A DNA stretch of 64,000 nucleotides from a virus. Taxonomy: Duplodnaviria; Heunggongvirae; Uroviricota; Caudoviricetes. Position 1 is the first letter of the stretch, and every line of letters begins with the position of its first letter. The notes beneath the pieces are model-generated. The model was not told the DNA's origin. It ran no database searches and saw only the letters and a list, made by a program, of their open reading frames with translations. Where the stretch lies: IMG/VR virus record IMGVR_UViG_2861079508_000001. One strand, written 5' to 3'. Positions 1 to 29,815 of the stretch are shown piece by piece. The position numbers and the translations under genes were made by a program.

Positions 1-367
1 TGTTACATAGGCTAATCCCAACGCCAGCTTTCGGATCTTTTAAGAGGAAACGACGGAAGACGTCCTGCCCATCGGCGCACATTGACGCCACGATAGACTC
101 AACAGCAACTATTGCTGCGTTCCCCGTCAGCTCGCGAGAGGCCAGCTTATTCAGTATATCAATGGCTTTTTCGTCACTTGGGACGGACTCACTAAGCGGC
201 TCTGCCACTTTGTATTTTTTTACCCCAAAACGGATGAAAGGGTTGAGCATCAATGAAACCATGCTTTGCTCGAAGTCATCCATGTTGGCCAATGCCTCTT
301 TTTTTGCATTGGTTCCCATAGCTTTCATTTCGTCCAGCTTATGCTTAAGTGCGATCAACTTTTTCAT
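1..367 (-). CDS. ATP-dependent DNA ligase, N-terminal ~122 codons only (gene runs off the window start)
   Basis: Minus-strand ORF from ATG at 365-367 (ATGA overlap with upstream stop) open to position 1; translation contains RELTGNAAI and DVFRRFLLKD...GVGIS, resembling the N-terminal region of T4-type ligases; KxDG adenylation motif would lie outside the window. Confidence 0.4.
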   Translation of the reverse strand, partial: MKKLIALKHKLDEMKAMGTNAKKEALANMDDFEQSMVSLMLNPFIRFGVKKYKVAEPLSESVPSDEKAIDILNKLASRELTGNAAIVAVESIVASMCADGQDVFRRFLLKDPKAGVGISLCN

Positions 368-834
368 TGTTGTTTTACCTCCATATGTTGATCGATTTGC
401 TCATGTGTTTCTTTTGTTGTTTCTTCAAGCAACGCCGCATACACGTCAGTGATCGCTGTTTGTGATGTGGTGCTCTTCTTAACCATGCTATTAATCGTTA
501 CACTGTCACGTTTTCGTTTTATAGTTCTGGCTTGTTTATTCCGTTCTTCAACCTCCTTAATGAGCGCGGTCATATCTTCGAAATACAGAGATTCTCCTTT
601 ACGAATCTCTTCAACCATCATTTTTAACGCCTTGCATTTGCCTGCTTTAATAGCGGTTGCGCACGACTGGAAAGAAGTTCGAGGAAGACGGTTTTCTTTG
701 AAGGCAAGAATGGTGTGCTGGCAAACGGAATAGCTGCAATATGTCGACTCACCGTTTATCTTTACTTCCTCACAACGAAGTGAATAACCGTTATTTCCTG
801 AAATAGAAGGGATTTTTGACAAATCAGCTTTCAC
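364..834 (-). CDS. hypothetical protein (Cys-rich N-terminus)
   Basis: 156-aa ORF in the same orientation as flanking replication genes; stop overlaps ligase start; no family recognised. Confidence 0.45.
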   Translation of the reverse strand: MKADLSKIPSISGNNGYSLRCEEVKINGESTYCSYSVCQHTILAFKENRLPRTSFQSCATAIKAGKCKALKMMVEEIRKGESLYFEDMTALIKEVEERNKQARTIKRKRDSVTINSMVKKSTTSQTAITDVYAALLEETTKETHEQIDQHMEVKQQ

Positions 835-900
835 AATTACCGCCAGAAATAATCTTGTGCTTACCTATCATTATTTGCGTAAAAACGACACACAGAGAGC

Positions 901-1677
901 TTACCAACTTCCCCAGCTAATCATCTTGCGCTGATCGCTTTCTAAGCGATAAGGGGCAAGAAGCTCTGTGACATGATTGGTGGCGTATGATTTAGCCTCT
1001 TGCTTAATCATCGGTAATTCGTTAGCAATCCTGACCATCTTCCCAGCAAATTCCGCCATTACGCCATCACAAGCCTTCCCCGCATCAACAACGATATGCA
1101 CAAGATCCAACTGGCTTTTGCACATATCCCAAAGAGACGCGTATTCACTCTCTCTGATTACATTTACGGCACTATTAGCCCCTTTATTAATCAAAACTTC
1201 CAACAGATTTTTCGGGGTAACGAAATCTGCTTTCAGAGATAATGTCTTTTCACCACTTATCGAACGCAAGTACTCTTCGTAGTTATTCTTCATCAAACCG
1301 CTGCTGCGCATTGCTAGAACTGCTTCTTGAATGGCCGCTTCAATAGTTTCGTCGTTTGAAAGACAAAAAACGGTATTTGTGTAGATCACTCTGCCATCAA
1401 GCCATGCTCCAACCTGCACTTTAAGACTGAGCGGGTTTTCTTTGCTAATAAAAACAACTAATGCAGAACGCCGTGCACAAGAAGGTTCGCCCCATACGTG
1501 TAACTCAACCTTCAGATAAGGCAACCCTGGTAGCGGGATCTCGTCCATACGAGCAGCGATATGATTCATTGCTGTATTGACGGCCTTTCCAATGATGTCT
1601 AGTCGACTGCCCTCGCTGATTTCTAAACCTGTTTTATCAATGATGTCACAGGCCAATTTCTGAATTTCGTCTTTCAT
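901..1677 (-). CDS. hypothetical protein
   Basis: 258-aa ORF; RBS-like AGGAG upstream of ATG; no recognisable motifs. Confidence 0.5.
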   Translation of the reverse strand: MKDEIQKLACDIIDKTGLEISEGSRLDIIGKAVNTAMNHIAARMDEIPLPGLPYLKVELHVWGEPSCARRSALVVFISKENPLSLKVQVGAWLDGRVIYTNTVFCLSNDETIEAAIQEAVLAMRSSGLMKNNYEEYLRSISGEKTLSLKADFVTPKNLLEVLINKGANSAVNVIRESEYASLWDMCKSQLDLVHIVVDAGKACDGVMAEFAGKMVRIANELPMIKQEAKSYATNHVTELLAPYRLESDQRKMISWGSW

Positions 1678-1718
1678 ACCAACTCCTAGCTAACAGATGA
1701 AAGTATTCTTACAAAAAA

Positions 1719-1744
1719 CTAAGTATGTATCTACTTATCATTTT
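1719..1744 (-). promoter_or_regulatory. motif 2 element (TACTTATCA family)
   Basis: CTAAGTATGTATCTACTTATCATTTT upstream of gene 901..1677. Confidence 0.45.
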
Positions 1745-1802
1745 AGGCGCAATAGTTCCCTATACGAAGATGCCGGGCTTATAGTCTGCCCGGCATTCAC
1801 CA

Positions 1803-2216
1803 TTAATGAGCTACAGCCTCACTGTTGCACATCTTTCTGTAGACCTGCTTATAACGCTGTAAGTCATGAGGATCATTAGGTGCCAACGACTTCGATAGGA
1901 TTTTGTATACCACCCCTTTCGAAAACATGCCCTTTGGCTTCATTTCGAGTTCAACAACATATGAGTGATAGCCCACGTATGCACCAAAGCCATTTTTGGC
2001 GTTCAATTCTCCGCACACAAAGCCTGTCACACTCCCATCGTCATGATCAGTCCTGACAAACTTATCTTTCCTAAACATCACCGACGTGGGATCTTTCATA
2101 TCATCCGCAATTGCTTGTTGGCCCAGAGCAATAGCCTTCTCGTCTGTAGGCTTACACCCCACTAAAGCAAACAAAGACAATAAAGCTCCTGTTAAAATCA
2201 GCTTATTTTTGCTCAT
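1803..2216 (-). CDS. putative lipoprotein
   Basis: N-terminal signal peptide with lipobox LVGC (MSKNKLILTGALLSLFALVGC). Confidence 0.55.
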   Translation of the reverse strand: MSKNKLILTGALLSLFALVGCKPTDEKAIALGQQAIADDMKDPTSVMFRKDKFVRTDHDDGSVTGFVCGELNAKNGFGAYVGYHSYVVELEMKPKGMFSKGVVYKILSKSLAPNDPHDLQRYKQVYRKMCNSEAVAH

Positions 2217-2449
2217 GTTGGCTTCCCTTTATTTATATTTATCGCAGGTATTAGTTAATCAAAACACGAGCAGTGCCACAATAATTAAATGGCGTACTAT
2301 TTCTTATGGTTATTAGTTTCCTAGTAACTTTACCGACCATAAACTAAATCAACAAAGCTGACATATTAACTAAATTTAAGTACCATTTTTCGCACACTTG
2401 ACACTTGCCGCGTCTAAACTGTTCATCCTATATCAACAGAACAAAAAAT

Positions 2450-3595
2450 ATGAAATACATAAAATCTTCATCGTTGCTGGCATTAACTTTGCTTTTTAGC
2501 TCTGGATTCGTTAACGCAGACAATAAACAAACGCTGATAGAAGCCGCTACCGCAGGGGATACCGCAGCACAAAGTGAGTTAGGGACAAATTATTTTGATG
2601 GTATCAATGGTTTTGATAAGGATGTAGTTGAGGCCAAGAAGTGGATTGATCTCGCTGCAGAAAAGGGAGACAAAGTAGCATATTATGCACTTGGGGTTAT
2701 GTACACATTTGGCGAGGGTGTAGATAAAGACTTAAATAAAGCAGTTGAGTACTACAAACTTGCGGGAGATGCTCGTGAAGGTAGAGCCTATAACAATCTT
2801 GGTGCTATTTATCAAAAGGGGATGCTTGGTAAAGTAGATCATGCGCTCGCCATTAAATACTTCAAACTAGCCTCTGATGCCGGGTATGTTAAAGCTAGCT
2901 ACCTTCTTGGTGCGTATTACCAATATGGTAAAGGTGTACAAAAGAGTTATAAAAAAGCTTTTACTTATTACAAAAAAGCGGCGGATCAAGGTAGTTCAGA
3001 TGGCATGTTCGCATTAGGCACCTTATACGATGACGGTTTAGGTGTTAAACGCAACGATGCCGAAGCAATTAAGTGGTATAAAAAAGCTGCTGAACTCGGA
3101 AACGCCGATGCCATGACAAATCTTGGCATTATGTATGAGTATGGTGAAGGGGTTAAAAAAGACTATAAAAAAGCAGCTGAGCTTTATCAGGCTGCTTGTG
3201 ATAAAGAAGATAAAAATGGCTGTGATTACATTGCAGAACTGAAAGAAAGCGGCAAATATCGAGCGCCGGCTTCCAAAGCCAAAACAAAATCCGCCACCCA
3301 GCGACTTATTGCTAAATCCATTGATAAGGGCGTTAACGCTACATTTACCTGGCAGGGTGATGATGCTACCTTCACCGCTAATGATGGCAAAGTTGACTGC
3401 ACCTTCCTGAAGGATTTTTCAGAGAAAGGAGGCAATCTGGCTACCTCGTTTGTTTGCACCGATAACGTTCAAATCATACTGAAGCAATTCAGAGATACCA
3501 AGAATGCCTACCTCGCGGTAATGACTGACAACTTCAACACAGAAGTTAAATCATTTTCGGTCAATGTGTACGTGACTAATACTGGTTCAAACTAA
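2450..3595 (+). CDS. secreted Sel1-like repeat (TPR-like) protein
   Basis: Start moved to internal ATG giving signal peptide MKYIKSSSLLALTLLFSSGFVNA; at least 6 tandem ~36-aa repeats with the Sel1 pattern (A..YY..A..QG...A...LG.MY..G.GV.KD...A..WYKKAA). Confidence 0.65.
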   Translation: MKYIKSSSLLALTLLFSSGFVNADNKQTLIEAATAGDTAAQSELGTNYFDGINGFDKDVVEAKKWIDLAAEKGDKVAYYALGVMYTFGEGVDKDLNKAVEYYKLAGDAREGRAYNNLGAIYQKGMLGKVDHALAIKYFKLASDAGYVKASYLLGAYYQYGKGVQKSYKKAFTYYKKAADQGSSDGMFALGTLYDDGLGVKRNDAEAIKWYKKAAELGNADAMTNLGIMYEYGEGVKKDYKKAAELYQAACDKEDKNGCDYIAELKESGKYRAPASKAKTKSATQRLIAKSIDKGVNATFTWQGDDATFTANDGKVDCTFLKDFSEKGGNLATSFVCTDNVQIILKQFRDTKNAYLAVMTDNFNTEVKSFSVNVYVTNTGSN

Positions 3596-4768
3596 TGCTG
3601 CTATGCCTTTTACCTTGCTTAAAAGTTCAAGCTGTCGTGAGTAAGGTTTTGCGCAATAGTAGGCTTTGATAATCTGCCCCGGGGTCGCATCGCCGGGGTC
3701 GAGTCCTTCCTCGCCCAAACATGCAATTTTCACATTAAGACCGATACTGGTCAGTCGCCTGGCTGCGGCCATAGTGTTTCGTATAGCTTGCTTTTCACTA
3801 TCCCACATCATGATCACATTACGTAATCCACGCGCCTTGAGCGTCAGGAACGCGCCCAACTGATCTTCTGCATCCTGAGTGGTGTTACCAGATAGATGCA
3901 TCCCGAACGTTCCTATTGGTTCCACGTAATCGCGTAATGTTTCTTCGTCAAAAATAGCTCGTTTGACCCCCATAACATCGAACGCCCCCTCACAGACAAC
4001 TACAGTCTGTTTGCCGACTGCATTGTGGCCGTTGTAGAGAAACTTACCTGAAGCTGGAAGCTGCATAGGAAAGAGGTAGCGGCGTTCTGCTGTACCGGTA
4101 ATGTCTCGTCCTTGAAATGTCTTCATTACCCCATCCAGATCGTAAACCGGTATCAGTATTCGCATATCGAAAATCTGTCCTTTAACCTGATCTGTATACG
4201 GATCTACATAAGCGTGCTTGCCTTCGACGCAGTATCGTAGGTCAAAATACTTTGCCATTTCAGGCGATATATTTCGTTCAACCAGATAGTCTGGAAGATG
4301 GCCATCTATAGGAAGATCGTAATGACGAGGGAGTGCAACTGGTCCCTCTAACTCGACTGTGCTTGCAAGCACTATCTCTTCTTTCTTTGGTGCCCACCCC
4401 TGGGAAAGAAGAGCGTTCTGCACATATTCCTCGAACTGTCGTCGTGATTTACCGCTGTAGTGCTTGAGGAAGACCAGCTTATTGAACTGAATCTCTTCGG
4501 GATGATCACCAGCGAAGCATTTACCGACGCCACTGGTCAGATTGAAATATACCTTCCAGTTGGAGCTGCCGCATACCGGACACTCCTTGATATTCACTTC
4601 ACGACCGCGAGTACTCACGCCTCCACGTCGATAAACGATACCTTCAGTATCCAACCATTGTTCAAAATCTAATTCGGTAATTAGCTCTTTCAGCTCGCTC
4701 ACGATAATTCCACTTTTAACAGGCAATATTGTGACCAACCTAAATGTTGATATAACATAAAGGCTCAT
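3587..4768 (-). CDS. DNA primase (zinc-ribbon + TOPRIM)
   Basis: CPVCGSS...C zinc-binding motif followed by TOPRIM-like VVVCEGAFD and MMWDSE acidic motifs; start uncertain (track start is GTG inside a hairpin; first ATG used here). Confidence 0.55.
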   Translation of the reverse strand: MSLYVISTFRLVTILPVKSGIIVSELKELITELDFEQWLDTEGIVYRRGGVSTRGREVNIKECPVCGSSNWKVYFNLTSGVGKCFAGDHPEEIQFNKLVFLKHYSGKSRRQFEEYVQNALLSQGWAPKKEEIVLASTVELEGPVALPRHYDLPIDGHLPDYLVERNISPEMAKYFDLRYCVEGKHAYVDPYTDQVKGQIFDMRILIPVYDLDGVMKTFQGRDITGTAERRYLFPMQLPASGKFLYNGHNAVGKQTVVVCEGAFDVMGVKRAIFDEETLRDYVEPIGTFGMHLSGNTTQDAEDQLGAFLTLKARGLRNVIMMWDSEKQAIRNTMAAARRLTSIGLNVKIACLGEEGLDPGDATPGQIIKAYYCAKPYSRQLELLSKVKGIAALV

Positions 4769-4849
4769 GTGTTTTTCTTTTGTGGTTTGGCAAAAGAAAA
4801 GTTGTTTCACCAATGAATCAAGCGTGGAGGTGTTCTCCACGCTTATTTT

Positions 4850-6190
4850 TTAGGTAACGTCTAAGATTCGCTCAATGAAGCGCATTTGTTCGAGGTTTTG
4901 TTTAACGCGAATGCTGATCCCTCCCTGCTGGTTACGCGAACCAGCAAAGTAGAGACGAGCCTCTCCTTTCGCTTCTTCTTCTTCGGTTTTGTTGATCGTT
5001 ATTACCAGGTCAGCAATACGTACTTTTTCGATGTTGTCGGCAGCGTGCATCATTGTGGCAACTTCTGACGCGCCACCTTCACGGTTTGTTTGCGACGCCG
5101 TGATACCAGCAACGTTATGCTTGTCATAAAGAGCACGTAAATCGGTGTAGATACTACGAATGTTGGCGCGATCATCACGAAGGTCATAACTGGCACGCAT
5201 CAAATCTGCGTAGTCGACAACAACCATGTCAGGCACCATGCCATTGGCTTTCATACTGTTAAGCATACGGTCCAGATCTGCCGGTGACATACTTCCTGAC
5301 GGACGCTCAACAACCCACAAACTACCAATCCCCTTCGTGGCTCCCAACTCTGCCAACTTGCGATGAACTTCATCGCGCCGTTCCACCAGCTTGGACATTT
5401 CCGTCTCCGACAATCTTGCATCAAAACGGTCGGACAAAATGGTGGTGTGAACCTCCAGCGAGAGATACAGAACATTGTAGCCAGCAAGCGTAGCGTTTAT
5501 GGAAAACTCACCCATTGCGGTCGATTTACCGGATTTAGCAAAACCCATGAAGAGCACCATTTCGCGCTTTGCCCAGCCTTTTTGGTACAGCAATCTATCA
5601 AGCAGAGGGAGTCCAGTTGTAATGCTGTTTGGCACATACTCCTCTGAAGCCTCATATTCACGCGCTTTCAATCGCTCACTTGCGGAGGTGTAGTAGTCAT
5701 AGATTCCGGTCGCTTCGTTCGAGCCTATCTGCTGAACCTTGGCCATGATTGCCATCGCCCCCTGAAAGTCGCCCTTCTCTTTCAGTTCAGCAGCTTTAAT
5801 CAGAGCATCATCAAACGCTACACTTTTTGCGAATGTGGATACCTGGTCAACCATGTACGAGGTATCAGACAATTTTTCTGCAAGGATGCGCTTAAACGCA
5901 GCAACAACATCCGGGAAGAGTTCCTCACGGATGGTCTTATCGCGTTTCGCACGCTTAAGCATATCCAGAATCGCAGATGAAGAAGGCGCGCTCTTGTACA
6001 TACGGTAATAGCCCGAAACCATATTAACCAATATGGCATTGGCCGCATTGGCAAATTGGCTAGGCACAACCAGATCTCCCGCACGAGTAAGAAACTCGTG
6101 ATCACGACAAAAATATGCCGTCAGTCTGTTCTGGAAATCTTCATCAAACTCTTCGGACAGCCCGCGTCCTGTATGGCAAAGTTCGGTCAT
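4850..6190 (-). CDS. DnaB-family replicative DNA helicase
   Basis: RecA-like core with Walker A GFAKSGKST and Walker B-like MVVVDYADLM; 446 aa; immediately upstream of primase. Confidence 0.75.
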   Translation of the reverse strand: MTELCHTGRGLSEEFDEDFQNRLTAYFCRDHEFLTRAGDLVVPSQFANAANAILVNMVSGYYRMYKSAPSSSAILDMLKRAKRDKTIREELFPDVVAAFKRILAEKLSDTSYMVDQVSTFAKSVAFDDALIKAAELKEKGDFQGAMAIMAKVQQIGSNEATGIYDYYTSASERLKAREYEASEEYVPNSITTGLPLLDRLLYQKGWAKREMVLFMGFAKSGKSTAMGEFSINATLAGYNVLYLSLEVHTTILSDRFDARLSETEMSKLVERRDEVHRKLAELGATKGIGSLWVVERPSGSMSPADLDRMLNSMKANGMVPDMVVVDYADLMRASYDLRDDRANIRSIYTDLRALYDKHNVAGITASQTNREGGASEVATMMHAADNIEKVRIADLVITINKTEEEEAKGEARLYFAGSRNQQGGISIRVKQNLEQMRFIERILDVT

Positions 6191-6209
6191 GTGCTTTCCT
6201 TTGTTTTTT

Positions 6210-6225
6210 AAACAAATTGTTTTCT
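6210..6225. promoter_or_regulatory. motif 1 operator-like palindrome (AAACAAATTGTTTTCT)
   Basis: In the 43-bp gap upstream of the helicase gene start. Confidence 0.5.
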
Positions 6226-6233
6226 AGTATTAG

Positions 6234-6983
6234 TTAATTAGATAGGGGATCAATAAACCGCCGTGCTTCTTCCAGTTCTTCTGGAAAGTGGGCGGAAATA
6301 AGGCGCTCTGGAACGATTTCCATTAGCCAGATAGCGGAGAAAATTGCGCGTATGCGCTTGCTGCGGGGGATGGTGCGTAAACGCTCCAGAATCCACTCAA
6401 AATAGCTTTCCTGGATCGGGTTGAACTGCATGTCTCCCATATGCTTAAAGCTAACTAGAGAGTCATCCAGACGGGTTGTTGCGCGTCTGGCTAATTTCTC
6501 TTCGAATATCTCAACCAGCTCTGGCTGCCATAAATGCTGTGGGCGCGGCAGCTTGTCCCACAGCCGTCGTGCAGCTGCGGAAAGAACGGTGGAGATAAAG
6601 TAGTCGTATGAGCAGCAATAGCGGTCAGCAAACTGGCGTGCTTTCCATAGAGACGTTTTATTGGCAGTCGACAACTCCTGATAAGGCAGGCGTTTTAACC
6701 CGGTGGTGAACGGAGCTGTTTCAAAGTGTTCGCGACCGTGCGTCAGCATGATATTTGAGTACTGACGTTTGTATGCCTCCGTAAAAAGACAGGTGGCCAT
6801 GAGAGGATGCATGTCGCGGTAATCAAACCACTTCGTCTCGAAGAGTTCAGCCTCGTCTTTACAGCGCGACAAACCAATGTTTTCAGCGACCCACTTGTCC
6901 ATAACAGCGGTATTCCACTCTGTCATGAAGTCGTACTGGTCGTTGTCGATGGTATCGAAAAAGATTTGGCTCATGTGGCTCAC
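6234..6983 (-). CDS. hypothetical protein
   Basis: 249-aa ORF; no family recognised; motif-2 element just upstream. Confidence 0.45.
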   Translation of the reverse strand: MSHMSQIFFDTIDNDQYDFMTEWNTAVMDKWVAENIGLSRCKDEAELFETKWFDYRDMHPLMATCLFTEAYKRQYSNIMLTHGREHFETAPFTTGLKRLPYQELSTANKTSLWKARQFADRYCCSYDYFISTVLSAAARRLWDKLPRPQHLWQPELVEIFEEKLARRATTRLDDSLVSFKHMGDMQFNPIQESYFEWILERLRTIPRSKRIRAIFSAIWLMEIVPERLISAHFPEELEEARRFIDPLSN

Positions 6984-6985
6984 CT

Positions 6986-7010
6986 GGTAGGTAGTTACTT
7001 ACTTATCACA
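6986..7010 (-). promoter_or_regulatory. motif 2 element
   Basis: GGTAGGTAGTTACTTACTTATCACA immediately upstream of gene 6234..6983. Confidence 0.45.
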
Positions 7011-7090
7011 ATGAGCGGATGATAGCGACTGGTGGCAGTTTTTGGAAGTGGAAACGGAAGGGAGTTGTTCTGGTGGTGTCTTTTAAAAGA

Positions 7091-7145
7091 CCTGCTTCCG
7101 TATATATTTAATAAGTTACTTATTATTTATATATACAGAAGCAGG
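7091..7145. repeat. 55-bp near-perfect palindrome, copy 1
   Basis: CCTGCTTCCGTATATATTTAATAAGTTACTTATTATTTATATATACAGAAGCAGG; identical copy at 41241-41295; centre AATAAGTTACTTATT is itself palindromic and motif-2-like. Confidence 0.6.
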
Positions 7146-7256
7146 CATAACTTGTCGTCTTAGACGCCCAGAAGCTCTACACTTTGAGCCTGTTAAATTG
7201 ATTAAAAACTTATGTGTAAAATAGAACGCATTAGTCAGTAGCAAAGAGATGCAATA

Positions 7257-8024
7257 ATGGACGATTTATCGGTATACGCGAGATCATTGGATAAGGCTAA
7301 ATACTATGTTTACTGTCTCTATGATACAGAAGACAAGATGAAAAGACCGTTTTACATAGGAAAAGGCAAATCGACTCGTTGTCTCGATCACATCAAGTAT
7401 CCCGATGACTCTCCCAAATCCATGCGGATCAAAGAACTTTTGGCTAATAAAAAATTAGGCATAGATATACTTCGTCATGGTATGGATGAAACCACAGCCA
7501 AACTTGTTGAGGCGACATGCATCGACCTTATGGGGGTCGGAGAGCTTACGAATAAGGTACGAGGAAGTGGTTCCATGATGGGCAGAATATCACTGGACGC
7601 CTACCATCACTTAGTGCTGCAAGAGGAAACTGAAATTGCTCCTGAGCACGCCGGTCTTGCCTTCCTGCTAAACAGCACCTACAAGTCAGGAATGTCCGCT
7701 CTGGCATTATATGAGGCTACGCGTGGCGTATGGGCAAAGGTTCCAAGAGACGAGAATCTCAAATATGCCTACGCTACATATGGTGGGCTGATAATGGAAG
7801 TTTATCAGATTGAATGCTGGGTCAAAGCCGGTTCTCAGCAGTACTTTACAAGGGATATAGCTCTTGGCCCCGACACAAAACGTTATGAATTTGTTGGCAG
7901 AATAGCCGATGAGCATATTAGAAAACTGTATGTAGGCAAATTAATCAAGAAGCCACCAAGCTACGGTAGCCCTTTTGTGAAGGTTGGGGTGGTTAGGACT
8001 GAACATAGTGTTAGCGCGGCATAA
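7257..8024 (+). CDS. GIY-YIG family nuclease (possible homing endonuclease)
   Basis: N-terminal VYCLYD-x9-YIGKG-x5-R...H matches the GIY-x(9-11)-YIG motif; gene is inverted relative to all neighbours and preceded by a large non-coding region. Confidence 0.5.
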   Translation: MDDLSVYARSLDKAKYYVYCLYDTEDKMKRPFYIGKGKSTRCLDHIKYPDDSPKSMRIKELLANKKLGIDILRHGMDETTAKLVEATCIDLMGVGELTNKVRGSGSMMGRISLDAYHHLVLQEETEIAPEHAGLAFLLNSTYKSGMSALALYEATRGVWAKVPRDENLKYAYATYGGLIMEVYQIECWVKAGSQQYFTRDIALGPDTKRYEFVGRIADEHIRKLYVGKLIKKPPSYGSPFVKVGVVRTEHSVSAA

Positions 8025-12117: not shown

Positions 12118-12143
12118 TGTAGGTGTGTACCTACCTATCATTC
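12118..12143 (-). promoter_or_regulatory. motif 2 element
   Basis: GTGTACCTACCTATCATTC upstream of holin-like gene. Confidence 0.45.
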
Positions 12144-12371
12144 AGCATTGCAACGGACTGATGAGAAAGCACCTACTCCTACCCATCGCCAGTTATAGAT
12201 ACTACCCGCTTTGTATAAGGTATAGTCGTTCACTTTTTTAACAGCATATATGGGTATGACTGTCTCCTGTCCACCAATGATAGCCTCACCGTAACATATA
12301 GGTGTCGGCAATTTCTGGCAGCCAGTAAGAGAGAGAACAACAGCTATTATTAGAAATAATCTTTTCATCAT
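12138..12371 (-). CDS. small lipoprotein (candidate superinfection-exclusion/receptor-blocking lipoprotein)
   Basis: 77 aa with signal peptide and lipobox LTGC; located immediately downstream of tail-fibre-associated genes, the position occupied by Llp/Cor-type lipoproteins in other siphoviruses. Confidence 0.45.
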   Translation of the reverse strand: MMKRLFLIIAVVLSLTGCQKLPTPICYGEAIIGGQETVIPIYAVKKVNDYTLYKAGSIYNWRWVGVGAFSSVRCNAE

Positions 12372-13301: not shown

Positions 13302-16300
13302 TTATTCTTTAGGTGAATTTAACTTCGTTTCAAGCTCCTCAACCCTTTTGGTCAATTGCTGAATATGATGAATGAGTGGTACAACCAAACGCTCATACAT
13401 CACTCCTTCAGCGACCATACCATTTGAGGAAATATCTTCTGGAGAATCATTATTTGTTGGTTCACGCCAATGGACATATTGCGGGGCAATCTCACCAACC
13501 TCTTCAGCAATAAGGCCGTAATACCCCCAATCCTTTCGGTCACCTCGACAAATTGAACGATACCAAACAGGTCTTAATGACAAAAGTTCATCAGCATATC
13601 GATCTTGTAATGTTTCAATATCCTTTTTATAGCGCCTTGAAGAGGTTGAACGCCAAACTGTATTGATACCTGGGTTTGGATCAATGTACATATTGGCACC
13701 GCTAGTAGTTGTGCCAATATCCCATATAGCAAACCCTCCACTACCGCCTGATTTGACAACCAGTGTTTCAGCAATAATATCCAGGTTGCCACTATAGCCT
13801 GTCAGTGATGATCTGCTTGCATAGGAACTTAGAAGGTTTGTTACCTCTGTTTTCGTGTAAGCATTAAGGTTAGCCGCAGTCAAAGTTATATCGGCAGAGC
13901 CATCAAACGCCACACCAGCAATTTTCCTTGCTGTCTGCAATTTTGTGGCGGTTGCGGCATTACCAGTAGTGTTCTGATTACCAGTTGTATTCACACCAGG
14001 GATTGAATCCTTAGCGGTATATACCTGCGCCCACGCTGACCATGCCGCACCTGTGTTATCTCTTCGTGAGCGAATGAAAACTGGCGCATGTGCACCGCTC
14101 GTACCACTCCAGCCAATAAGCAACTCTCCCTCACCAGCAGCACTCGCACCTTTCATGTGCAATACGTTGCCATACATGGTCGGGTAGCTATTGTTGTACG
14201 CCTCGTACATTTGAATGCCAGCAGTGCCTTGAGTAGAGCCGCTTAACGCCGTAACTCGGCCACGAGATACCAATGTATTAATGTTGATATCGCCTGAGCC
14301 ATCAAACTTAACACCATTGATGTTTCTCGCTGTTTGCAACTTCGTAGCTGTTGAAGCATTACCGTTCAAACTACCATTTACGCCACCAGTCACATTTAGT
14401 CCATTACCAATTGATACAGCACCGCTGGTATTATTAATTGTAATAGGTCGCAAACCGTTCCATGAACCTAATGTGTCTCCTGATGCTGTTAGCATGAAAT
14501 ATGTGTTCGATCCATCATTACGGATAAAGAACCCAAAGCTACCGTAAGCAATGCGGAAACCATTTGCATATTTTGAAATGATCTCGCCAGAAGATGTCAA
14601 ACCTCCAGATAATGTACCACCGGTAAGAGGTAATGCACCGACATCAGAGGCTGTTGGTTTGTTTTTCGTGTTATATACTCTTCGCCATCCCGGAGAATAA
14701 TCTGTGCCATTAAATACATAGATAAACTCCGCATTAGTGAGAGCACCAGAGACACTCGTCGTTGTGGCCGTTGTTATACGGATCGTATAATTGTTTGAGC
14801 TACTACCGTTATTAAATACCTCTATAACAGCTCCTGCCAATGGAATAACGCCACAACCAGTTTCACTATTTGGTATGGTTGCACTATTGGCATAGGCCCA
14901 CGCACATCGAGCAATCCATGACTTTGTGTTAAATGCTCCATTATTTTGCAATAACGTCACTAACTGTGCTGTTGTTATTGCTCCGCCATTACTTCCTGTA
15001 GTTAACCAACCAGTAGGAGATGCCGGGCAACCTATATTTGCTGGCGACAAGGAAATATTTGCCGAGCCGTCAAACGACACCCCATTGATAGTACGCGCAG
15101 TCTGCAACTTCGTAGCAGTAGCCGCGTTGCCCGTTGTATTCTGATTACCAGTCGTATTAACACCTGGCAAATTAATATTCGCAGTACCATCAAAGCTCAC
15201 GCCGCCGATAGTTCTTGCCGTCTGAAGTTTTGTAGCAGTTGCAGCATTACCAGTGGTGTTCTGATTACCCGTAGTATTTACACCTGGAAGGTTGATATTT
15301 GCAGAACCGTCGAAACCAACTCCACCGATAGATCTTGCCGTCTGCAATTTCGTTGCTGTACTTGCATTACCATTTAATGTTCCGGTGATCCCACCAGTAA
15401 CAGACAACGGACCTGAAACTGTTCCTCCGGTTGTTGGCAGTGCTCCAATATCTAACGGCGTCGGTTTCTGATGTGTGCTATACATCGTATAAACAACACC
15501 ATCGGTAACGCTGGAAGGCTTACTAGCTGAATATGTTGGCGATGTATAAATAGAAACTGTCGCATTTGCAGTACAATCCCAATGGATATTTACACGAGTC
15601 GCATAATTGCCAATCTCAACGTAAATATCATATGTATCGCCGGATGTGTTGATCCAGGCGAAATTCGTTAATCCGACAGCTGTACGCTTCCACAAAGCAC
15701 CTGTAATCCCTTTGGGGTTTCCATTGCCTGCTCGTAGAACCAGTTCTGAAATGCCTGCCTGATGTGGGGAGCCGACGTTGTAACCAGCGCCACCAATCAA
15801 TGCGATGTAAACGATGGAACTCGCTTGTGGCATGGTAACCGTAGCCAGTTTGAACCACCCTGCCCCGCCAGAGAAAGACATCGTTACTGAATTTAAAGTA
15901 CCAATATCTTTCGGCGTTAATGTGATATCCGCAGTCAGTGCTTTACCGTTAACTTTTCGGTTAGATGGCACCCTGCTATTCGCATTGTCATTGGCTGCTT
16001 TAACTGCTTTTGGCGTTGCGGCCAGCGATTCACTGGTGCTGTCGACAGCACTGCTAAGTTTCACAACACCTTTAGTTGTAAGGCTTGCGTCTTCCATCGC
16101 AACTGCACCGGCAATCTCTTCAGCACGATCAGCAGCAGCTTCCGCACGGGTCGCAGCGGATTCAGCAGCAGTTTTGCTCTGAGATGCTGCCGTCGCACTG
16201 CCTGCCGCCTCTGTTGCTTTCGTGGATGCCGTCGTGGCGCTGCCCTTCGCTGCTGACGCCTGTCTGGTCGCCTCATCTTTTGAAGCAGACGCAGATGATG

Positions 16301-17459
16301 CCGATGACGCTGCCGAACTGGCGGACGATGCGGCTGCCGTTTTTGAGGATTCTGCACGGGTTTCCGACGCTTTCGCGTTCGTTTCGGATGTCTTCGCTGC
16401 GGAAGCAGACCTCGCTGCTGCGCTGGCCTGTTCAGTGGCTTCGCCAGCCTTCGTTGTGGCTGTTGAAGCAGACGATGCGGCACTTTCTGCCGATTTTCCG
16501 GCGGCTGTGGCACTGGCTGAGGCCTGCCCGGCACTTGTTGACGCGGCACTGGCAGACGACGCAGCCGCTGTTTTTGAGCCTGCTGCAGCCGAGGCGCTCT
16601 GTCCCGCTGCCGTTTCAGAAGACTTGGCGTTCGTCTCGGACGTTTTTGCCGCCTTCGCGGAATTTCCTGCCGCCGTTGCCGAGGAAGCTGCGCTACTGGC
16701 GCTCGAGGATGCGTTCGTTTCTGATGATTTCGCTGCCTCTTTTGAGGCCGCCGCATCCCGGGCTGAGGTGGCAGCTTCTGACGCTTTCGTGGTCGCGGTG
16801 GATGCAGAAGTGGCTGCTGATTGTTGTGACGCTGCGGCATTCGTTTCAGATTTTTTCGCAGCAGTTGCACTCGCACTTGCGGCACTTTGTGAGGATGCCG
16901 CAGCGGATGCACTTTGAGACGCTTGAGAGGCTTTTTCTCCAGCGGTATTGGCGCTTTCTGCTGCTGCGGCAGCACTGGCCGCCGCCTCACGAGCTTTGTC
17001 GCCAGCAGCATCAATCGCGTCAGTGTTATTTTTATACCACTCAACGTTTTCGTTGTGCTCGTTGACGATCTGCATTAGCGGCTTAACGGTTACTTCTGAA
17101 CCGTCTTCACGCTCGATTGTCACCTCATCCAGAGCAGTCAACCAACTGCGCATGGACTTGGAATCAGCCGACATACGCGACATTAGTGCTGTAAAGCGCG
17201 CGCTAAACTGTGTTAAGTCGCCTTCATAGGTCGTAATGATTCGGCACGGAACTTCAGACTGAGTTTCGCCGGTATAAGGTTCTGAGAGAACAATGTTCGT
17301 ATCACTGGTTACGCGCTTGATCTCATACAGCTTATTGTCGGGGCCAATGACGATCATCCCCGGCAACACACCATTAGCTGTTACGTTCCAGGCTGTCCCT
17401 GCCCCAACCAGAGTATTGCTGCCCTGTGTAAATGTGATAGTACCTTCCCTGTACCACAT
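13302..17459 (-). CDS. long tail fibre protein with C-terminal intramolecular chaperone (peptidase S74-type) domain
   Basis: 1385 aa; ~280-aa Ala/Ser/Thr-rich low-complexity region; tandem phage-fibre repeats (ASTATKLQTAR.IGGV.FDGSANINLPGVNTTGNQNTT x3-4); C-terminal YGLIAEEVGEIAPQYV-type chaperone motif. Confidence 0.75.
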   Translation of the reverse strand: MWYREGTITFTQGSNTLVGAGTAWNVTANGVLPGMIVIGPDNKLYEIKRVTSDTNIVLSEPYTGETQSEVPCRIITTYEGDLTQFSARFTALMSRMSADSKSMRSWLTALDEVTIEREDGSEVTVKPLMQIVNEHNENVEWYKNNTDAIDAAGDKAREAAASAAAAAESANTAGEKASQASQSASAAASSQSAASASATAAKKSETNAAASQQSAATSASTATTKASEAATSARDAAASKEAAKSSETNASSSASSAASSATAAGNSAKAAKTSETNAKSSETAAGQSASAAAGSKTAAASSASAASTSAGQASASATAAGKSAESAASSASTATTKAGEATEQASAAARSASAAKTSETNAKASETRAESSKTAAASSASSAASSASSASASKDEATRQASAAKGSATTASTKATEAAGSATAASQSKTAAESAATRAEAAADRAEEIAGAVAMEDASLTTKGVVKLSSAVDSTSESLAATPKAVKAANDNANSRVPSNRKVNGKALTADITLTPKDIGTLNSVTMSFSGGAGWFKLATVTMPQASSIVYIALIGGAGYNVGSPHQAGISELVLRAGNGNPKGITGALWKRTAVGLTNFAWINTSGDTYDIYVEIGNYATRVNIHWDCTANATVSIYTSPTYSASKPSSVTDGVVYTMYSTHQKPTPLDIGALPTTGGTVSGPLSVTGGITGTLNGNASTATKLQTARSIGGVGFDGSANINLPGVNTTGNQNTTGNAATATKLQTARTIGGVSFDGTANINLPGVNTTGNQNTTGNAATATKLQTARTINGVSFDGSANISLSPANIGCPASPTGWLTTGSNGGAITTAQLVTLLQNNGAFNTKSWIARCAWAYANSATIPNSETGCGVIPLAGAVIEVFNNGSSSNNYTIRITTATTTSVSGALTNAEFIYVFNGTDYSPGWRRVYNTKNKPTASDVGALPLTGGTLSGGLTSSGEIISKYANGFRIAYGSFGFFIRNDGSNTYFMLTASGDTLGSWNGLRPITINNTSGAVSIGNGLNVTGGVNGSLNGNASTATKLQTARNINGVKFDGSGDININTLVSRGRVTALSGSTQGTAGIQMYEAYNNSYPTMYGNVLHMKGASAAGEGELLIGWSGTSGAHAPVFIRSRRDNTGAAWSAWAQVYTAKDSIPGVNTTGNQNTTGNAATATKLQTARKIAGVAFDGSADITLTAANLNAYTKTEVTNLLSSYASRSSLTGYSGNLDIIAETLVVKSGGSGGFAIWDIGTTTSGANMYIDPNPGINTVWRSTSSRRYKKDIETLQDRYADELLSLRPVWYRSICRGDRKDWGYYGLIAEEVGEIAPQYVHWREPTNNDSPEDISSNGMVAEGVMYERLVVPLIHHIQQLTKRVEELETKLNSPKE
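15050..15420 (-). repeat. tandem ~110-bp coding repeats inside tail fibre gene
   Basis: Encode the repeated ATKLQTAR.IGGV.FDG fibre motif. Confidence 0.6.
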
Positions 17460-17501
17460 GTTGAATATGCTCCTTGATTTGGTGGGCTATCCTTGCCCAC
17501 C

Positions 17502-17529
17502 ATTAAGTATGTACCTACTTATTTTTACC
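17502..17529 (-). promoter_or_regulatory. motif 2 element
   Basis: ATTAAGTATGTACCTACTTATTTTTACC upstream of tail fibre gene. Confidence 0.45.
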
Positions 17530-17551
17530 GATATAAATATTTTTTTCTACA

Positions 17552-22270: not shown

Positions 22271-22281
22271 AAAATCCTTGA

Positions 22282-27800: not shown

Positions 27801-28547
27801 CCTGCTCGCATCAGTTTGAACGCAACCATCGCGGCCACGACCTTACCGAGATTAATTACCAGCTCTTGGTTCTTTGCTAACCATTGAGCAAGCTGACGCA
27901 ACCCATCAATTGCCGTCGTTAACCCCGAGCCTAAAGAATTGGCAAACGAAATCCCTTCGGCGCTATTCATGATTGAAGCCAGTTCTTTCATCCCCTTCGA
28001 TAGAGAATCCAGATATCCGGCCTGACCAACCCGATCAGCAAATAACGTGAATGACGTCTGAAGTTGCGCCAGCGCACCTGTGTAGGTTTGCATCATGTCT
28101 TTCGCTGCGTTCTCATTCTCCGCACGCAGACCAACAAACATCAGAGACAACGCCTGTTTTGCCTCAACCGTACCGCTGGCAACGGCTTTAGTCAGTTCCC
28201 CCATAGTGATGCCTGCGGCGTCTGCCATTGCCTGCATCGCGTTAGGAACGGCTTCACCTAATTGCTGACGTAGCTCTTCCATTGACACAACGCCCTTACC
28301 GGACATCTGCTGAACGGCCACAGCCGCACGTTTCAACAGCTCACTATCACCACCAAAACGAGCAACGGAGTCCACCAGCGCCTTCAGAGAACCATCGGTT
28401 GGATCTAAGCCAGCAGAACGAAACTTCACGAAGGAATCTGTTAACGCCTGCATCGCGAACGGCGCATTTTGCGCCATGTCTACGATGTACTTCATATCAT
28501 CAGCGGCAGCCTGGCCAGGGTTGGACTTCTCCTTATTCAACCCTCGA
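24809..28547 (-). pseudogene. tape measure protein, 3' portion (gene interrupted by IS insertion)
   Basis: Long mostly helical ORF (1243 aa from an internal TTG) downstream of chaperone genes; reading frame is continuous with the 29858..30714 fragment once the IS and one TSD copy are removed. Confidence 0.7.
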
Positions 28548-28601
28548 TGAACCGCCCCGGGAATCCTGGAGACTAAACTCCCTGAGAAAGAGGTAAACAG
28601 G

Positions 28602-28928
28602 ATGACTAAAAATACTCGTTTTTCCCCCGAAGTCCGTCAGAGGGCGATTCGTATGGTTCTGGAAAGTCAGGGCGAATATGACTCACAGTGGGCGGCAATT
28701 TGTTCCATTGCCCCAAAGATTGGCTGTACACCGGAGACTCTGCGTGTCTGGGTACGCCAGCATGAGCGGGATACCGGAGGCGGTGATGGCGGGCTCACCA
28801 CCGCTGAACGTCAGCGTCTGAAAGAGCTGGAACGTGAAAATCGTGAACTGCGCCGCAGTAACGATATCCTTCGCCAGGCTTCCGCTTATTTTGCGAAGGC
28901 GGAGTTCGACCGCCTCTGGAAAAAATGA
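28602..28928 (+). CDS. IS3-family transposase OrfA (HTH/leucine-zipper part)
   Basis: 108 aa [23 protein letters not shown]...; I recognise this as the IS629/IS3-group OrfA; ends at an A-run slippery site. Confidence 0.8.
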
Positions 28929-29815
28929 TGCCACTGCTGGATAAGCTGCGTGAGCAGTACGGGGTCGGACCGCTATGCAGCGAACTGCATATTGCCCCGT
29001 CAACGTATTACCACTGTCAGCAACAGCGACATCATCCGGATAAACGCAGTGCCCGTGCGCAGCGCGATGACTGGCTGAAGAAAGAGATACAGCGCGTATA
29101 CGATGAAAATCATCAGGTGTACGGTGTGCGTAAAGTCTGGCGTCAGTTGTTACGGGAAGGTATCAGAGTGGCCAGATGCACTGTGGCACGTCTCATGGCG
29201 GTTATGGGACTTGCCGGTGTTCTCCGGGGTAAAAAGGTCCGTACGACCATCAGCCGGAAAGCCGTTGCCGCAGGCGACCGCGTAAACCGTCAGTTCGTGG
29301 CAGAACGACCTGACCAGCTGTGGGTGGCTGATTTTACTTACGTCAGCACATGGCGGGGCTTCGTCTATGTGGCGTTCATCATTGATGTGTTTGCCGGATA
29401 CATCGTGGGGTGGCGGGTCTCATCGTCTATGGAAACGACATTCGTGCTGGATGCTCTGGAGCAGGCGTTATGGGCCCGTCAACCGTCCGGCACAGTCCAT
29501 CACAGTGATAAAGGTTCTCAGTATGTATCGCTGGCCTACACACAGCGGCTTAAGGAAGCCGGATTACTGGCATCAACAGGAAGTACTGGTGACTCGTATG
29601 ACAACGCGATGGCGGAGAGCATCAATGGCCTTTACAAAGCGGAGGTAATACACCGTAAGAGCTGGAAAAACCGGACAGAAGTGGAGCTGGCCACACTCAC
29701 GTGGGTGGACTGGTATAACAATCGACGATTGCTGGAAAGGCTGGGCCATATCCCACCGGCAGAAGCAGAAAAAGCTTATTATGCTTCCATCGGAAACGAT
29801 GATCTGGCAGCCTGA
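28925..29815 (+). CDS. IS3-family transposase OrfB (DDE catalytic part)
   Basis: 296 aa overlapping orfA in the -1 frame at AAAAAATGA; integrase-type DDE core (e.g. [16 protein letters not shown]). Confidence 0.8.

What the first reader, a model, noticed from the sequence alone, without database searches (positions are those of the whole stretch)
1803..3595. Moron-like pair near the replication genes: lipoprotein and secreted Sel1-repeat protein
A 137-aa lipoprotein (minus) and a 381-aa secreted Sel1/TPR-like repeat protein (plus, own promoter region) interrupt the replication block. Sel1-repeat proteins are unusual phage cargo and in bacteria often mediate protein-protein interactions at the envelope or with host factors; the pair may modify the host cell surface (lysogenic conversion or exclusion).
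Basis: partly seen in the sequence, partly recalled or inferred. Interest (0 to 1): 0.45.

Follow-up and report, generated by a model that had tools for sequence, protein, structure and literature searches.

The report
Two independent envelope cargo genes
A plasmid-like temperate phage of E. coli carries, in a cargo hotspot beside its DNA primase gene, two unrelated add-on genes for envelope proteins; both are real and conserved, each also occurs alone at this site in related elements, and their function is untested (a protective role is my guess).

Summary
Observation confirmed; interpretation partly supported. The window is the SSU5-like phage-plasmid pSJC33-2 of E. coli.

**The two genes**
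- 1803-2216(-) encodes a 137-aa lipoprotein: lipobox LVGC, cystatin/NTF2-like fold, no Pfam family.
- 2450-3595(+) encodes a 381-aa protein with a Sec signal peptide, six Pfam Sel1 repeats and an unclassified C-terminal beta domain.
- Both are under purifying selection (dN/dS 0.04 and 0.12-0.21).

**The cassette**
- The ~1.87-kb block (1739-3611, 41% GC against a 47% median) is replaced by 39 bp in the closely related phage PhiR41_1.
- About 22% of SSU5-type plasmids carry the Sel1 gene.

**Not a functional pair**
The site between the phrog_4248 gene and the primase is a hotspot with five states: empty, lipoprotein only, Sel1 only, both, or an unrelated gene (SSU5_041). Each family is also cargo in other temperate phages. 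The lipoprotein usually sits just upstream of the tape-measure gene, the HK97 gp15 moron slot. The Sel1 protein also occurs after tail-fibre genes at a lambdoid prophage end.

**Function**
Function is untested. A periplasmic protective role (superinfection exclusion, toxin immunity or control of cell-wall hydrolases) is my inference. This is a new member of a known kind, of moderate interest.

The parts
1739..3611 (.). Accessory cassette (~1.87 kb) in the hotspot between the phrog_4248 gene and the primase gene
   Evidence: BLAST against phage PhiR41_1 aligns window 339-1738 and 3612-8000. The cassette is replaced there by 39 bp (L001 4408-4446). GC is 41.1%, the 3.5th percentile of same-size windows (median 47.1%).
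1803..2216 (-). Gene for a 137-aa lipoprotein. The signal peptide is codons 1-20 (2157-2216) and the lipidated Cys21 codon is 2154-2156. The mature domain has a cystatin/NTF2-like fold
1770..1796 (-). Stable 9-bp GC-rich hairpin just downstream of the lipoprotein stop codon; a possible terminator without a clear U-tract
   Evidence: RNA fold of 1745-1810(-): stem AUGCCGGGC/GCCCGGCAU; the whole 66-nt stretch folds at -22.6 kcal/mol, z = -2.64 against shuffles. The terminator scan did not list it.
2217..2449 (.). Divergent AT-rich intergenic region (33% GC), the presumed promoter region for both genes
   Evidence: Composition. One sigma-70-like site at 2358-2386(+), CTGACA-17-TACCAT, 9/12 matches. 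The number of sites in the region is no higher than in shuffles.
2450..3595 (+). Gene for a 381-aa exported Sel1-repeat protein. The signal peptide is 2450-2518, the Sel1 solenoid is 2516-3250 (residues 23-267) and the C-terminal beta domain is 3302-3577 (residues 285-376)
3587..3595 (.). 9-bp convergent overlap between the 3' ends of the Sel1 gene and the primase gene. The cassette's right junction lies inside the primase 3' end
   Evidence: Coordinates. The same overlap is seen in Citrobacter and Enterobacter. The last ~12 primase residues are LELL(S/A)K(V/I)KGIAAL(V/L) where the Sel1 gene is present and LELQSKVLGIKAL(S/V) where it is absent.
3587..4840 (-). DNA primase gene (context, right flank). 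RefSeq starts it at 4702
   Evidence: phrog_47 E 1.1e-62; Toprim/DnaG_N.
901..1677 (-). phrog_4248 gene of unknown function (context, left flank)
   Evidence: phrog_4248 E 2.1e-131. It is conserved next to the hotspot in all relatives examined.

Best explanation
The region holds two independent accessory ('moron'-type) genes in a cargo hotspot of an SSU5-like phage-plasmid. It is not a two-gene system.

Shown:
- One gene encodes a lipoprotein with a cystatin/NTF2-like domain. By the +2 Lys rule it should be anchored in the outer membrane.
- The other encodes a Sec-exported, disulfide-containing protein. It has a six-to-seven-hairpin Sel1 solenoid joined to a conserved, unclassified beta domain.
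- Each gene is gained, lost and exchanged on its own among related phage-plasmids.
- Each family is also carried as cargo by other kinds of temperate phage.

Inferred:
- Both act in the periplasm of the lysogen as binding or neutralising proteins that protect the carrier cell.
- The lipoprotein most likely blocks an envelope-crossing step of incoming phages. This would be superinfection exclusion of the HK97 gp15, Cor or Llp type.
- The Sel1 protein would use its fast-diverging repeat surface to bind a variable periplasmic ligand. Candidates are an incoming phage or toxin protein, or a peptidoglycan hydrolase, as IltA does with MltF. Its conserved beta domain would dock on a constant partner.
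For: Identity of the element:
- 100% match to plasmid NZ_CP080257.1 and ~96% to phages CMS-2020a, PhiR41_1 and Cyrano.

Accessory status:
- The cassette is replaced by 39 bp in PhiR41_1.
- The site is empty in an E. hormaechei plasmid and holds the unrelated SSU5_041 in SSU5.
- It holds Sel1 only in Citrobacter, Enterobacter and one metagenomic contig, and lipoprotein only in E. hormaechei and Cronobacter.
- Of 404 PLSDB records with this primase and helicase, 90 carry the Sel1 C-terminal domain and 80 a lipoprotein homologue.
- In E. coli complete genomes, 61 of 5,426 carry it, always on plasmids.
- Cassette GC is 41% against a 47% median.

Real, constrained genes: dN/dS 0.04 and 0.12-0.21.

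Envelope location:
- Lipobox and Sec signal peptide.
- The lipobox Cys is conserved in at least 90% of the family and in 74 of 75 viral homologues.
- Invariant Cys pairs are present in both proteins.

Cargo in other phages:
- At least 433 lipoprotein relatives are in IMG/VR. In 45 of the 80 best loci the gene lies 9-69 bp upstream of the tape-measure gene, after the major tail protein and phrog_791.
- This is the slot of the HK97 gp15 exclusion moron (PMC3594210).
- In P2-like SEN5 the gene lies between ogr and int.
- A Sel1-plus-beta-domain homologue (46% identity) lies after tail-fibre genes at a lambdoid prophage end.

Binding or inhibitor flavour:
- Cystatin, latexin and Cmi-like fold.
- Some family members carry SPOR or SH3 domains.
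- In the Sel1 gene the repeat part has dS up to 1.66, against 0.10 in the beta domain, and the repeat number varies from 5 to 7.

Precedents:
- Sel1E is a T6SS immunity protein (PMC7108748).
- IltA (Sel1-like) and LiiA (outer-membrane lipoprotein) control the lytic transglycosylase MltF (PMC10746161).
- Phage lipoproteins in structural clusters exclude phages (PMC11893012).
Against: - No functional datum exists for either family. All sources call them hypothetical or TPR proteins.
- There are no PADLOC, NCBIfam or Pfam hits for the lipoprotein.
- The fold matches are generic, with Z no higher than 8.3.
- The gp15 analogy rests on gene position only. gp15 is an unrelated inner-membrane protein.
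- In this element the lipoprotein is not near tail genes, and a canonical cor gene is already present at 12138-12371.
- In lipoprotein-only relatives the gene lies 30-45 bp after the primase on the same strand. There it could simply be part of the replication operon rather than prophage-expressed.
- Promoter and terminator evidence is weak.
- The beta domain model has only moderate confidence (pLDDT 60-70).
Confidence: 0.45

Rival explanations
1. Orphan immunity genes. One or both proteins neutralise periplasm-acting toxins delivered by competitors (T6SS effectors, CDI toxins or colicins). The phage-plasmid would then protect its host in interbacterial warfare rather than against phages.
For: - Sel1-repeat proteins are proven T6SS immunity proteins (Sel1E against VgrG4, PMC7108748).
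- The 56%-identical full-length homologue in Pseudenterobacter timonensis lies among orphan CdiA fragments carrying Fil_haemagg_2 and PT-VENN domains.
- The variable-repeat, conserved-anchor pattern fits an arms race.
Against: - No effector gene lies next to either gene in the window or in any phage-plasmid examined.
- Similarity to known immunity proteins is only the generic Sel1 repeat.
- The other chromosomal contexts are unrelated (Pantoea) or prophage ends.
- The CDI context is a single case.
Confidence: 0.2
2. A coupled pair that tunes the host cell wall. As with IltA and LiiA of P. aeruginosa, the periplasmic Sel1 protein inhibits a lytic transglycosylase or other peptidoglycan hydrolase. 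The outer-membrane lipoprotein modulates that inhibition.
For: - There is a direct precedent for a periplasmic Sel1-like protein plus an outer-membrane lipoprotein controlling MltF (PMC10746161).
- The two genes share a divergent intergenic region and co-occur in about 55 Escherichia plasmids.
- Some lipoprotein-family members are fused to the peptidoglycan-binding SPOR domain or to SH3.
Against: - Each gene occurs alone at the same site and alone in other phages and chromosomes.
- Histories differ. Against plasmid L011 the lipoprotein is identical while the Sel1 gene has dS 0.21.
- Architectures differ from the precedent. IltA has 3 repeats and no beta domain. LiiA has a helical N-terminal domain plus an OmpA-like C-terminal domain, not a cystatin-like fold.
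Confidence: 0.1
3. Host-interaction or virulence factor. The Sel1 protein acts outside the bacterium on animal host factors, as proposed for EsiB (c5321), HcpA/HcpC and LpnE.
For: - The closest solved structures are 6ok3 (Oxalobacter formigenes Sel1-repeat protein, E 1.6e-73), EsiB/c5321 of uropathogenic E. coli (E 9.3e-66), LpnE and HcpC.
- Carriers include human stool, urine and blood isolates.
Against: - Only a Sec signal peptide is present. Nothing indicates export beyond the periplasm.
- Carriers are just as often from soil, wastewater, poultry, pigs and cattle.
- Similarity is confined to the generic repeat scaffold.
- The conserved beta domain is absent from those proteins.
Confidence: 0.08
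4. Ordinary core genes of the phage-plasmid, needed for replication or virion assembly, and not cargo at all.
For: - Location inside the replication block.
- Lipoprotein homologues lie inside tail gene clusters of many prophages.
- In some relatives the lipoprotein is co-directional with, and close to, the primase.
Against: - Absent from the viable phages PhiR41_1, Cyrano and SSU5 and from about 78% of SSU5-type plasmids.
- Both products are exported.
- GC is lower than in the flanks here and in 73 of 75 viral loci.
Confidence: 0.02

Closest known systems
HK97 gp15 moron (superinfection exclusion; Cumby et al. 2012, reviewed in PMC3594210)
   Same: Small exported or envelope protein encoded by an add-on gene. 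In 45 of the 80 best viral loci the lipoprotein family sits in the same slot, between the tail chaperone region and the tape-measure gene. Its GC is lower than that of the flanks.
   Different: No sequence or fold relation. gp15 is a YebO-like inner-membrane protein, whereas this is a lipoprotein with a cystatin/NTF2-like domain. In the window the gene lies by the primase, not in the tail module. Exclusion has not been tested.
Phage exclusion lipoproteins Cor (phi80/N15/HK022), Llp (T5) and the mEp Lpp proteins (PMC11893012)
   Same: Prophage-borne lipoproteins with a lipobox that act at the envelope. The mEp examples also lie in structural gene clusters.
   Different: No detectable homology. 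This protein is larger (137 aa). The same element carries a separate annotated cor gene at 12138-12371.
Bacterial Sel1-like repeat proteins with solved structures: 6ok3 (Oxalobacter formigenes), EsiB/c5321, LpnE, HcpC
   Different: This protein has an extra conserved ~95-residue beta domain with its own Cys pair, which has no Pfam or PDB relative. It is phage-plasmid or prophage borne.
IltA/LiiA of P. aeruginosa (PMC10746161) and Sel1E of K. pneumoniae (PMC7108748)
   Same: Sel1-like repeat proteins that bind and neutralise an enzyme or toxin. IltA is a predicted periplasmic protein and has an outer-membrane lipoprotein partner.
   Different: Different sizes and domain make-up. No adjacent effector or hydrolase gene here. 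The lipoprotein fold differs from that of LiiA. The two genes here are not inherited together.
Cystatin / NTF2-like periplasmic domains (cystatins, latexin, VirB8/TraM/DotI, colicin M immunity protein Cmi)
   Different: Sequence identity is only 4-14%. The family-specific motif KDPxSaxF...VCGevNAKNsfGaYvG and the C68/C130 pair are not features of those families.

Membership tests
Bacterial lipoproteins (Lgt/LspA/Lnt substrates) | N-terminal signal peptide ending in a lipobox [LVI][ASTVI][GAS]C | tested here: met
   MSKNK + LILTGALLSLFALVG + C21; lipobox LVGC. The Cys is conserved in at least 90% of 36 aligned members and a lipobox is present in 74 of 75 viral homologues.
Bacterial lipoproteins (Lgt/LspA/Lnt substrates) | Actual lipid modification and membrane sorting | not testable with these tools
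   Outer-membrane sorting is inferred only from Lys at +2 (no Asp), using the established Lol-avoidance rule.
Sel1 repeat family (Pfam PF08238) | Score above the Pfam gathering threshold, with multiple repeats | tested here: met
   175.9 bits against a cut-off of 30.7; six repeat matches.
Sel1 repeat family (Pfam PF08238) | Alpha/alpha solenoid structure | tested here: met
Phage moron (Juhala/Hendrix sense) | Present in one genome and absent at the same place in close relatives | tested here: met
   39 bp replace the cassette in PhiR41_1. Five site states were found across SSU5-like elements.
Phage moron (Juhala/Hendrix sense) | Nucleotide composition different from the neighbouring genes | tested here: met
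   41.1% GC, the 3.5th percentile of same-size windows. Lipoprotein homologues have lower GC than their flanks in 73 of 75 viral loci.
Phage moron (Juhala/Hendrix sense) | Own promoter and terminator | tested here: inconclusive
   One 9/12 promoter-like site at 2358-2386, with no more sites than in shuffles. There is a hairpin after the lipoprotein gene without a U-tract. The Sel1 gene ends inside the primase 3' end.
Phage moron (Juhala/Hendrix sense) | Expression from the repressed prophage | not testable with these tools
   No expression data were available.
Cor / Llp exclusion lipoproteins | Sequence homology to Cor or Llp | tested here: not met
   No NCBIfam or Pfam hit. RefSeq's Cor model hits a different gene, at 12138-12371.
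Known anti-phage defence systems (PADLOC-DB) | Match to a defence-system protein model | tested here: not met
   No hit for the lipoprotein. For the Sel1 protein there is only a weak repeat-type match to PtuA with no qualifying stretch (E 1.8e-5).
T6SS Sel1-type immunity proteins (Sel1E; PA5086-5088) | Gene adjacent to its cognate effector | tested here: not met
   Neighbours are the primase, the phrog_4248 gene and the lipoprotein gene. No T6SS or effector genes lie at this site in any of the phage-plasmid loci examined.
IltA/LiiA inhibitor/anti-inhibitor pair | Homology to IltA (3 Sel1-like repeats) and LiiA (helical N-terminal domain plus OmpA-like C-terminal domain) | not tested
   The sequences of PA3978 and PA5502 were not available to the tools. 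The architectures described in PMC10746161 differ from those found here.
Spanin outer-membrane subunit (Rz1-like) | Small proline-rich lipoprotein embedded in or next to an Rz gene in the lysis cassette | tested here: not met
   The protein is 137 aa and folded, lies next to the primase and has no Rz partner. SSU5 relatives have their Rz-like spanins elsewhere.

The most novel reading that the evidence does not exclude
The lipoprotein belongs to a large, unnamed family (at least 1,346 clusters at 50% identity; no Pfam entry). This family would be a new, widespread class of periplasmic superinfection-exclusion factor. It would be tethered to the outer membrane and use a cystatin-like inhibitor domain to block the tape-measure or tail-lysin step of genome entry, which would explain its habitual position just upstream of tape-measure genes. 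The Sel1 protein with its beta domain would be a phage-borne, fast-evolving inhibitor of cell-wall-degrading proteins. Both would target the wall-crossing step.
Probability: 0.15. Interest if true: 0.65.

Novelty: new member of a known kind. Interest (0 to 1): 0.35.

Why it matters
SSU5-like phage-plasmids are common in clinical and livestock Enterobacteriaceae and spread resistance genes such as CTX-M-15; pECOH89 carries this cassette. Knowing which cargo genes alter the host envelope bears on phage-therapy host range, on competition between mobile elements and on lysogen fitness.

The work identifies three things:
- A defined cargo hotspot beside the primase, with at least five alternative contents.
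- A very large uncharacterised phage lipoprotein family with a confident fold model. It recurs in a genomic slot known to hold an exclusion gene, and it is cheap to test.
- A Sel1 protein whose repeat surface is swapped between alleles while its C-terminal domain stays constant.

None of this overturns current ideas. It adds well-delimited candidates to the list of prophage-encoded envelope factors.

Tried and rejected
- **Pfam, NCBIfam, PADLOC and PDB sequence searches for the lipoprotein.** Nothing beyond the lipid-attachment site.
- **The C-terminal beta domain searched alone.**
  - The word-indexed protein search found only fragments of the same protein.
  - The PDB profile search found nothing at E<=10.
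  - Pfam gave only insignificant DUF3617 and DUF2691 hits.
- **The afdb50 fold library** was unavailable.
- **The BFVD viral fold search** returned only uncharacterised proteins.
- **Is SSU5_041, at the same site in SSU5, related to the Sel1 protein?** No.
- **Do chromosomal Sel1 homologues have a lipoprotein neighbour?** No.
- **Are the experimentally tested mEp exclusion lipoproteins relatives?** No mEp phage appeared among the 14 phage records with a lipoprotein homologue.
- **Literature searches linking Sel1 repeats with phage exclusion, or SSU5-like elements with Sel1/TPR proteins,** found nothing.
- **Spanin, structural-protein and core-replication readings** were rejected, as explained under the rival explanations.
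Full report
**What the window is.** Bases 1-8000 match the Escherichia phages CMS-2020a, PhiR41_1 and Cyrano at ~96% and Salmonella phage SSU5 at ~81%. Bases 1600-3700 are 100% identical to E. coli plasmid NZ_CP080257.1, pSJC33-2. The RefSeq annotation of that plasmid covers the whole window. The element is therefore an SSU5-like phage-plasmid. Around the finding the gene order, all on the minus strand, is DNA ligase, phrog_5055, phrog_4248, [finding], primase, DnaB-like helicase.

**Check of the observation.**
- The 137-aa ORF at 1803-2216(-) and the ORF ending at 3595(+) exist.
- For the plus-strand gene the mechanical ORF starts at TTG 2405 (396 aa). All full-length homologues start MK(Y/F/L)I, and RefSeq uses ATG 2450.
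- The lipoprotein has a positive n-region, a hydrophobic core and the lipobox LVGC with Cys21, followed by Lys.
- The Sel1 protein has a Sec-type signal peptide ending VNA|D and six Pfam Sel1 repeats (175.9 bits, cut-off 30.7).
- Both match PHROG families: phrog_2320 at E 1.9e-39 and phrog_8741 over its full length at E 4e-209.
- Against five to seven allelic copies, dN/dS is 0.04 for the lipoprotein and 0.12-0.21 for the Sel1 gene. Both are real, constrained genes.

**Anatomy of the proteins.**
- *Lipoprotein family.* An exhaustive HMMER search found 1,346 cluster representatives at E<=1e-3. An alignment of 36 shows the lipobox Cys, the motif KDPxSaxF...VCGevNAKNsfGaYvG, and Cys68 and Cys130 at 90% or more. 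No member matches a Pfam family apart from the lipid-attachment site. No source gives a name. Some longer members add a SPOR or SH3 domain.
- *Beta domain.* It is invariant at many positions, including C317 and C336. It has no Pfam or PDB relative. It was found only attached to Sel1 repeats or as fragments of such genes.
- *Location.* Conserved Cys pairs in both proteins fit an oxidising compartment. That is an inference.

**Is it accessory?** Yes.
- In phage PhiR41_1 the flanks align (339-1738 at 90%, 3612-8000 at 97%) and 39 bp replace window 1739-3611.
- The cassette has 41.1% GC, the 3.5th percentile of same-size windows. The intergenic part has 33%.
- Of 404 PLSDB records with this primase and helicase (221 Escherichia, 89 Enterobacter, 49 Salmonella, 23 Citrobacter), 48 hold at least 80% of the cassette at DNA level, all Escherichia except one uncultured-bacterium record.
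- 90 records encode the Sel1 C-terminal domain: Escherichia 59, Enterobacter 22, Citrobacter 8. Those listed lie beside the primase.
- 80 records encode a lipoprotein homologue: Escherichia 57, Cronobacter 8 and others.
- Among 5,426 complete E. coli genomes, 61 have a match. Every match is on a plasmid and none is on a chromosome.

**Is it a pair?** No. The site between the phrog_4248 gene and the primase has at least five states.

| State | Where seen |
|---|---|
| Empty | PhiR41_1; E. hormaechei pFJMB80002_2 |
| Lipoprotein only (~60% identity, same strand as the primase, 30-45 bp after it) | E. hormaechei pHD8642-1; Cronobacter pCsaC757b |
| Sel1 only (335-417 aa, 58-63% identity) | Citrobacter freundii; E. 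cloacae complex; a metagenomic contig |
| Both | The window and ~55 Escherichia plasmids |
| Unrelated 321-aa gene SSU5_041 | SSU5 |

Segment histories also differ.
- Against L011 the lipoprotein gene is identical, while the Sel1 gene has dS 0.21 and the primase dS 0.36.
- Against L009 the primase is identical, while the lipoprotein has dS 0.14 and the Sel1 gene dS 0.20.

The last ~12 primase residues co-vary with the presence of the Sel1 gene across genera. The Sel1 3' end overlaps the primase 3' end by 9 bp. The Sel1-bearing junction is therefore homologous in Escherichia, Citrobacter and Enterobacter.

**Both families are cargo elsewhere.**
- A scan of IMG/VR found at least 433 confirmed lipoprotein relatives.
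- In 45 of the 80 best loci the gene lies 9-69 bp (median 57) upstream of, and co-directional with, a tape-measure gene. It follows a major tail protein (phrog_853) and phrog_791.
- 74 of 75 homologues have a lipobox, and 73 of 75 have lower GC than their 3-kb flanks (median -6.8 points).
- This is the slot of the first named moron, HK97 gene 15. Its product blocks genome entry of superinfecting phages (PMC3594210).
- In P2-like Salmonella phage SEN5 the homologue lies between ogr and the integrase gene.
- A 46%-identical homologue of the Sel1 protein with the beta domain lies after the tail tip (J-like), tail-fibre and Peptidase_S74 genes, at the end of a lambdoid prophage and next to bacterial genes.
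- IS-truncated copies lie near prophage tail genes in Enterobacter kobei.
- Chromosomal copies occur in Pseudenterobacter, among orphan CdiA fragments, and in Pantoea. Neither has a lipoprotein neighbour.

**Evolution of the Sel1 gene.** The repeat part diverges far more than the rest. Against L004, dS is 1.66 in the repeats and 0.10 in the beta domain, with 0.09 in the adjoining primase. Repeat number varies: 335-, 381- and 417-420-aa forms exist. dN/dS stays at 0.11-0.21. This looks like exchange of repeat modules on a constant C-terminal domain. I read it, by inference, as a variable ligand-binding surface joined to a constant docking domain.

**Mechanism.**
- *Shown:* export signals, folds, accessory status, independent mobility and purifying selection.
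- *Inferred:* both act in the periplasm as binding proteins that benefit the lysogen.

For the lipoprotein, four things favour an exclusion-type role: the inhibitor-like fold, the conserved loop motif, the occasional SPOR or SH3 fusions, and the habitual place next to tape-measure genes. There are precedents for phage lipoproteins in structural clusters that exclude phages (PMC11893012).

For the Sel1 protein, precedents exist for neutralising binders. Sel1E is immunity to the T6SS effector VgrG4 (PMC7108748). IltA, a periplasmic Sel1-like protein, inhibits the lytic transglycosylase MltF and is itself bound by the outer-membrane lipoprotein LiiA (PMC10746161).

No experiment bears on either family. 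The promoter and terminator evidence is weak. The element already has a canonical cor gene. I therefore put only about 0.35 on a protective function, and about 0.9 on 'independent accessory envelope genes in a hotspot'.

**Comparison with the known, and novelty.** The genes are annotated in RefSeq as 'hypothetical protein' and 'tetratricopeptide repeat protein'. Nothing in the searched literature discusses them. They fit the known kind 'prophage moron encoding an envelope protein'. Neither belongs to a characterised exclusion, defence or immunity family. The lipoprotein family and the beta domain are unclassified. The verdict is a new member of a known kind. It is of moderate interest, mainly as a well-delimited and easily tested candidate.

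Noticed in passing
window 12138-12371 (-): RefSeq annotates a canonical 'phage exclusion lipoprotein Cor' downstream of the tail-fibre genes. The element therefore already has one known exclusion lipoprotein besides the one in the finding.
   Followed up: no
window 13302-17551: A tail-fibre pseudogene ('missing N-terminus', 13302-17021) is followed by ~530 bp with no annotated feature, then the tail tip fibre gene at 17552-22276. The tail-fibre region may be rearranged.
   Followed up: no
window 28883-28999 (+): Strong Rfam match to the ALIL pseudoknot (RF01497, 120 bits, E 1e-30). It lies on the strand opposite the tape-measure gene (24821-29392, -). No IS element is annotated there. Unexplained.
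   Followed up: no
window 53829-57201: The chromosomal-type genes metG (methionine-tRNA ligase, 53829-55862) and apbC (56020-57120) are carried on the phage-plasmid next to an IS1 transposase remnant (57127-57201). This looks like captured host DNA.
   Followed up: no
window 51142-53426: About 2.3 kb has no annotated gene in RefSeq. No tRNA was found anywhere in the window.
   Followed up: no
window 7257-8024 (+): A second opposite-strand island lies in the leftward replication/partition block. It is a LEM-3-like GIY-YIG gene (Pfam E 5.5e-7) with an AT-rich upstream region. SSU5, Enterobacter and Citrobacter relatives carry a DUF2971 gene or other genes at that place. It may be another cargo hotspot.
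   Followed up: partly
window 3587-3625 (primase 3' end); L001, L005, L006, L007, L008: The last ~12 residues of the primase differ according to whether the Sel1 gene is present (…LELLSKVKGIAALV against …LELQSKVLGIKALS/V), across three genera. The recombination junction therefore lies inside the primase gene.
   Followed up: yes
window 1715-1745; L006 and L007 upstream of the phrog_4248 gene: A conserved ~45-bp stretch with a short palindrome (AAGTATGTATCTACTTAT) lies upstream of the phrog_4248 gene in Escherichia, Enterobacter and Citrobacter elements. It marks the left edge of the hotspot. It could be a promoter or operator of the leftward operon.
   Followed up: no
P0192, P0232, P0180 (lipoprotein-family members): Some longer relatives of the lipoprotein carry a C-terminal SPOR domain (E 3e-14 and 3e-10) or a bacterial SH3 domain. 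Phage records annotate others as peptidoglycan-binding. This hints at work near the cell wall.
   Followed up: partly
Cronobacter sakazakii plasmids (H286-H288; L105): These SSU5-like plasmids have two places matching the lipoprotein. One is at the primase hotspot. The second copy was not located.
   Followed up: no
L002 5768-13894 (Pseudenterobacter timonensis chromosome): The chromosomal Sel1 homologue sits among CdiA fragments (Fil_haemagg_2, PT-VENN, DUF6862), small ORFs, a NERD-domain gene and IS remnants. This is a decayed contact-dependent-inhibition locus.
   Followed up: partly
window 61256-61681 (-): A gene annotated 'tellurite/colicin resistance protein' is on the same element. It is another possible envelope-protective cargo gene.
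   Followed up: no
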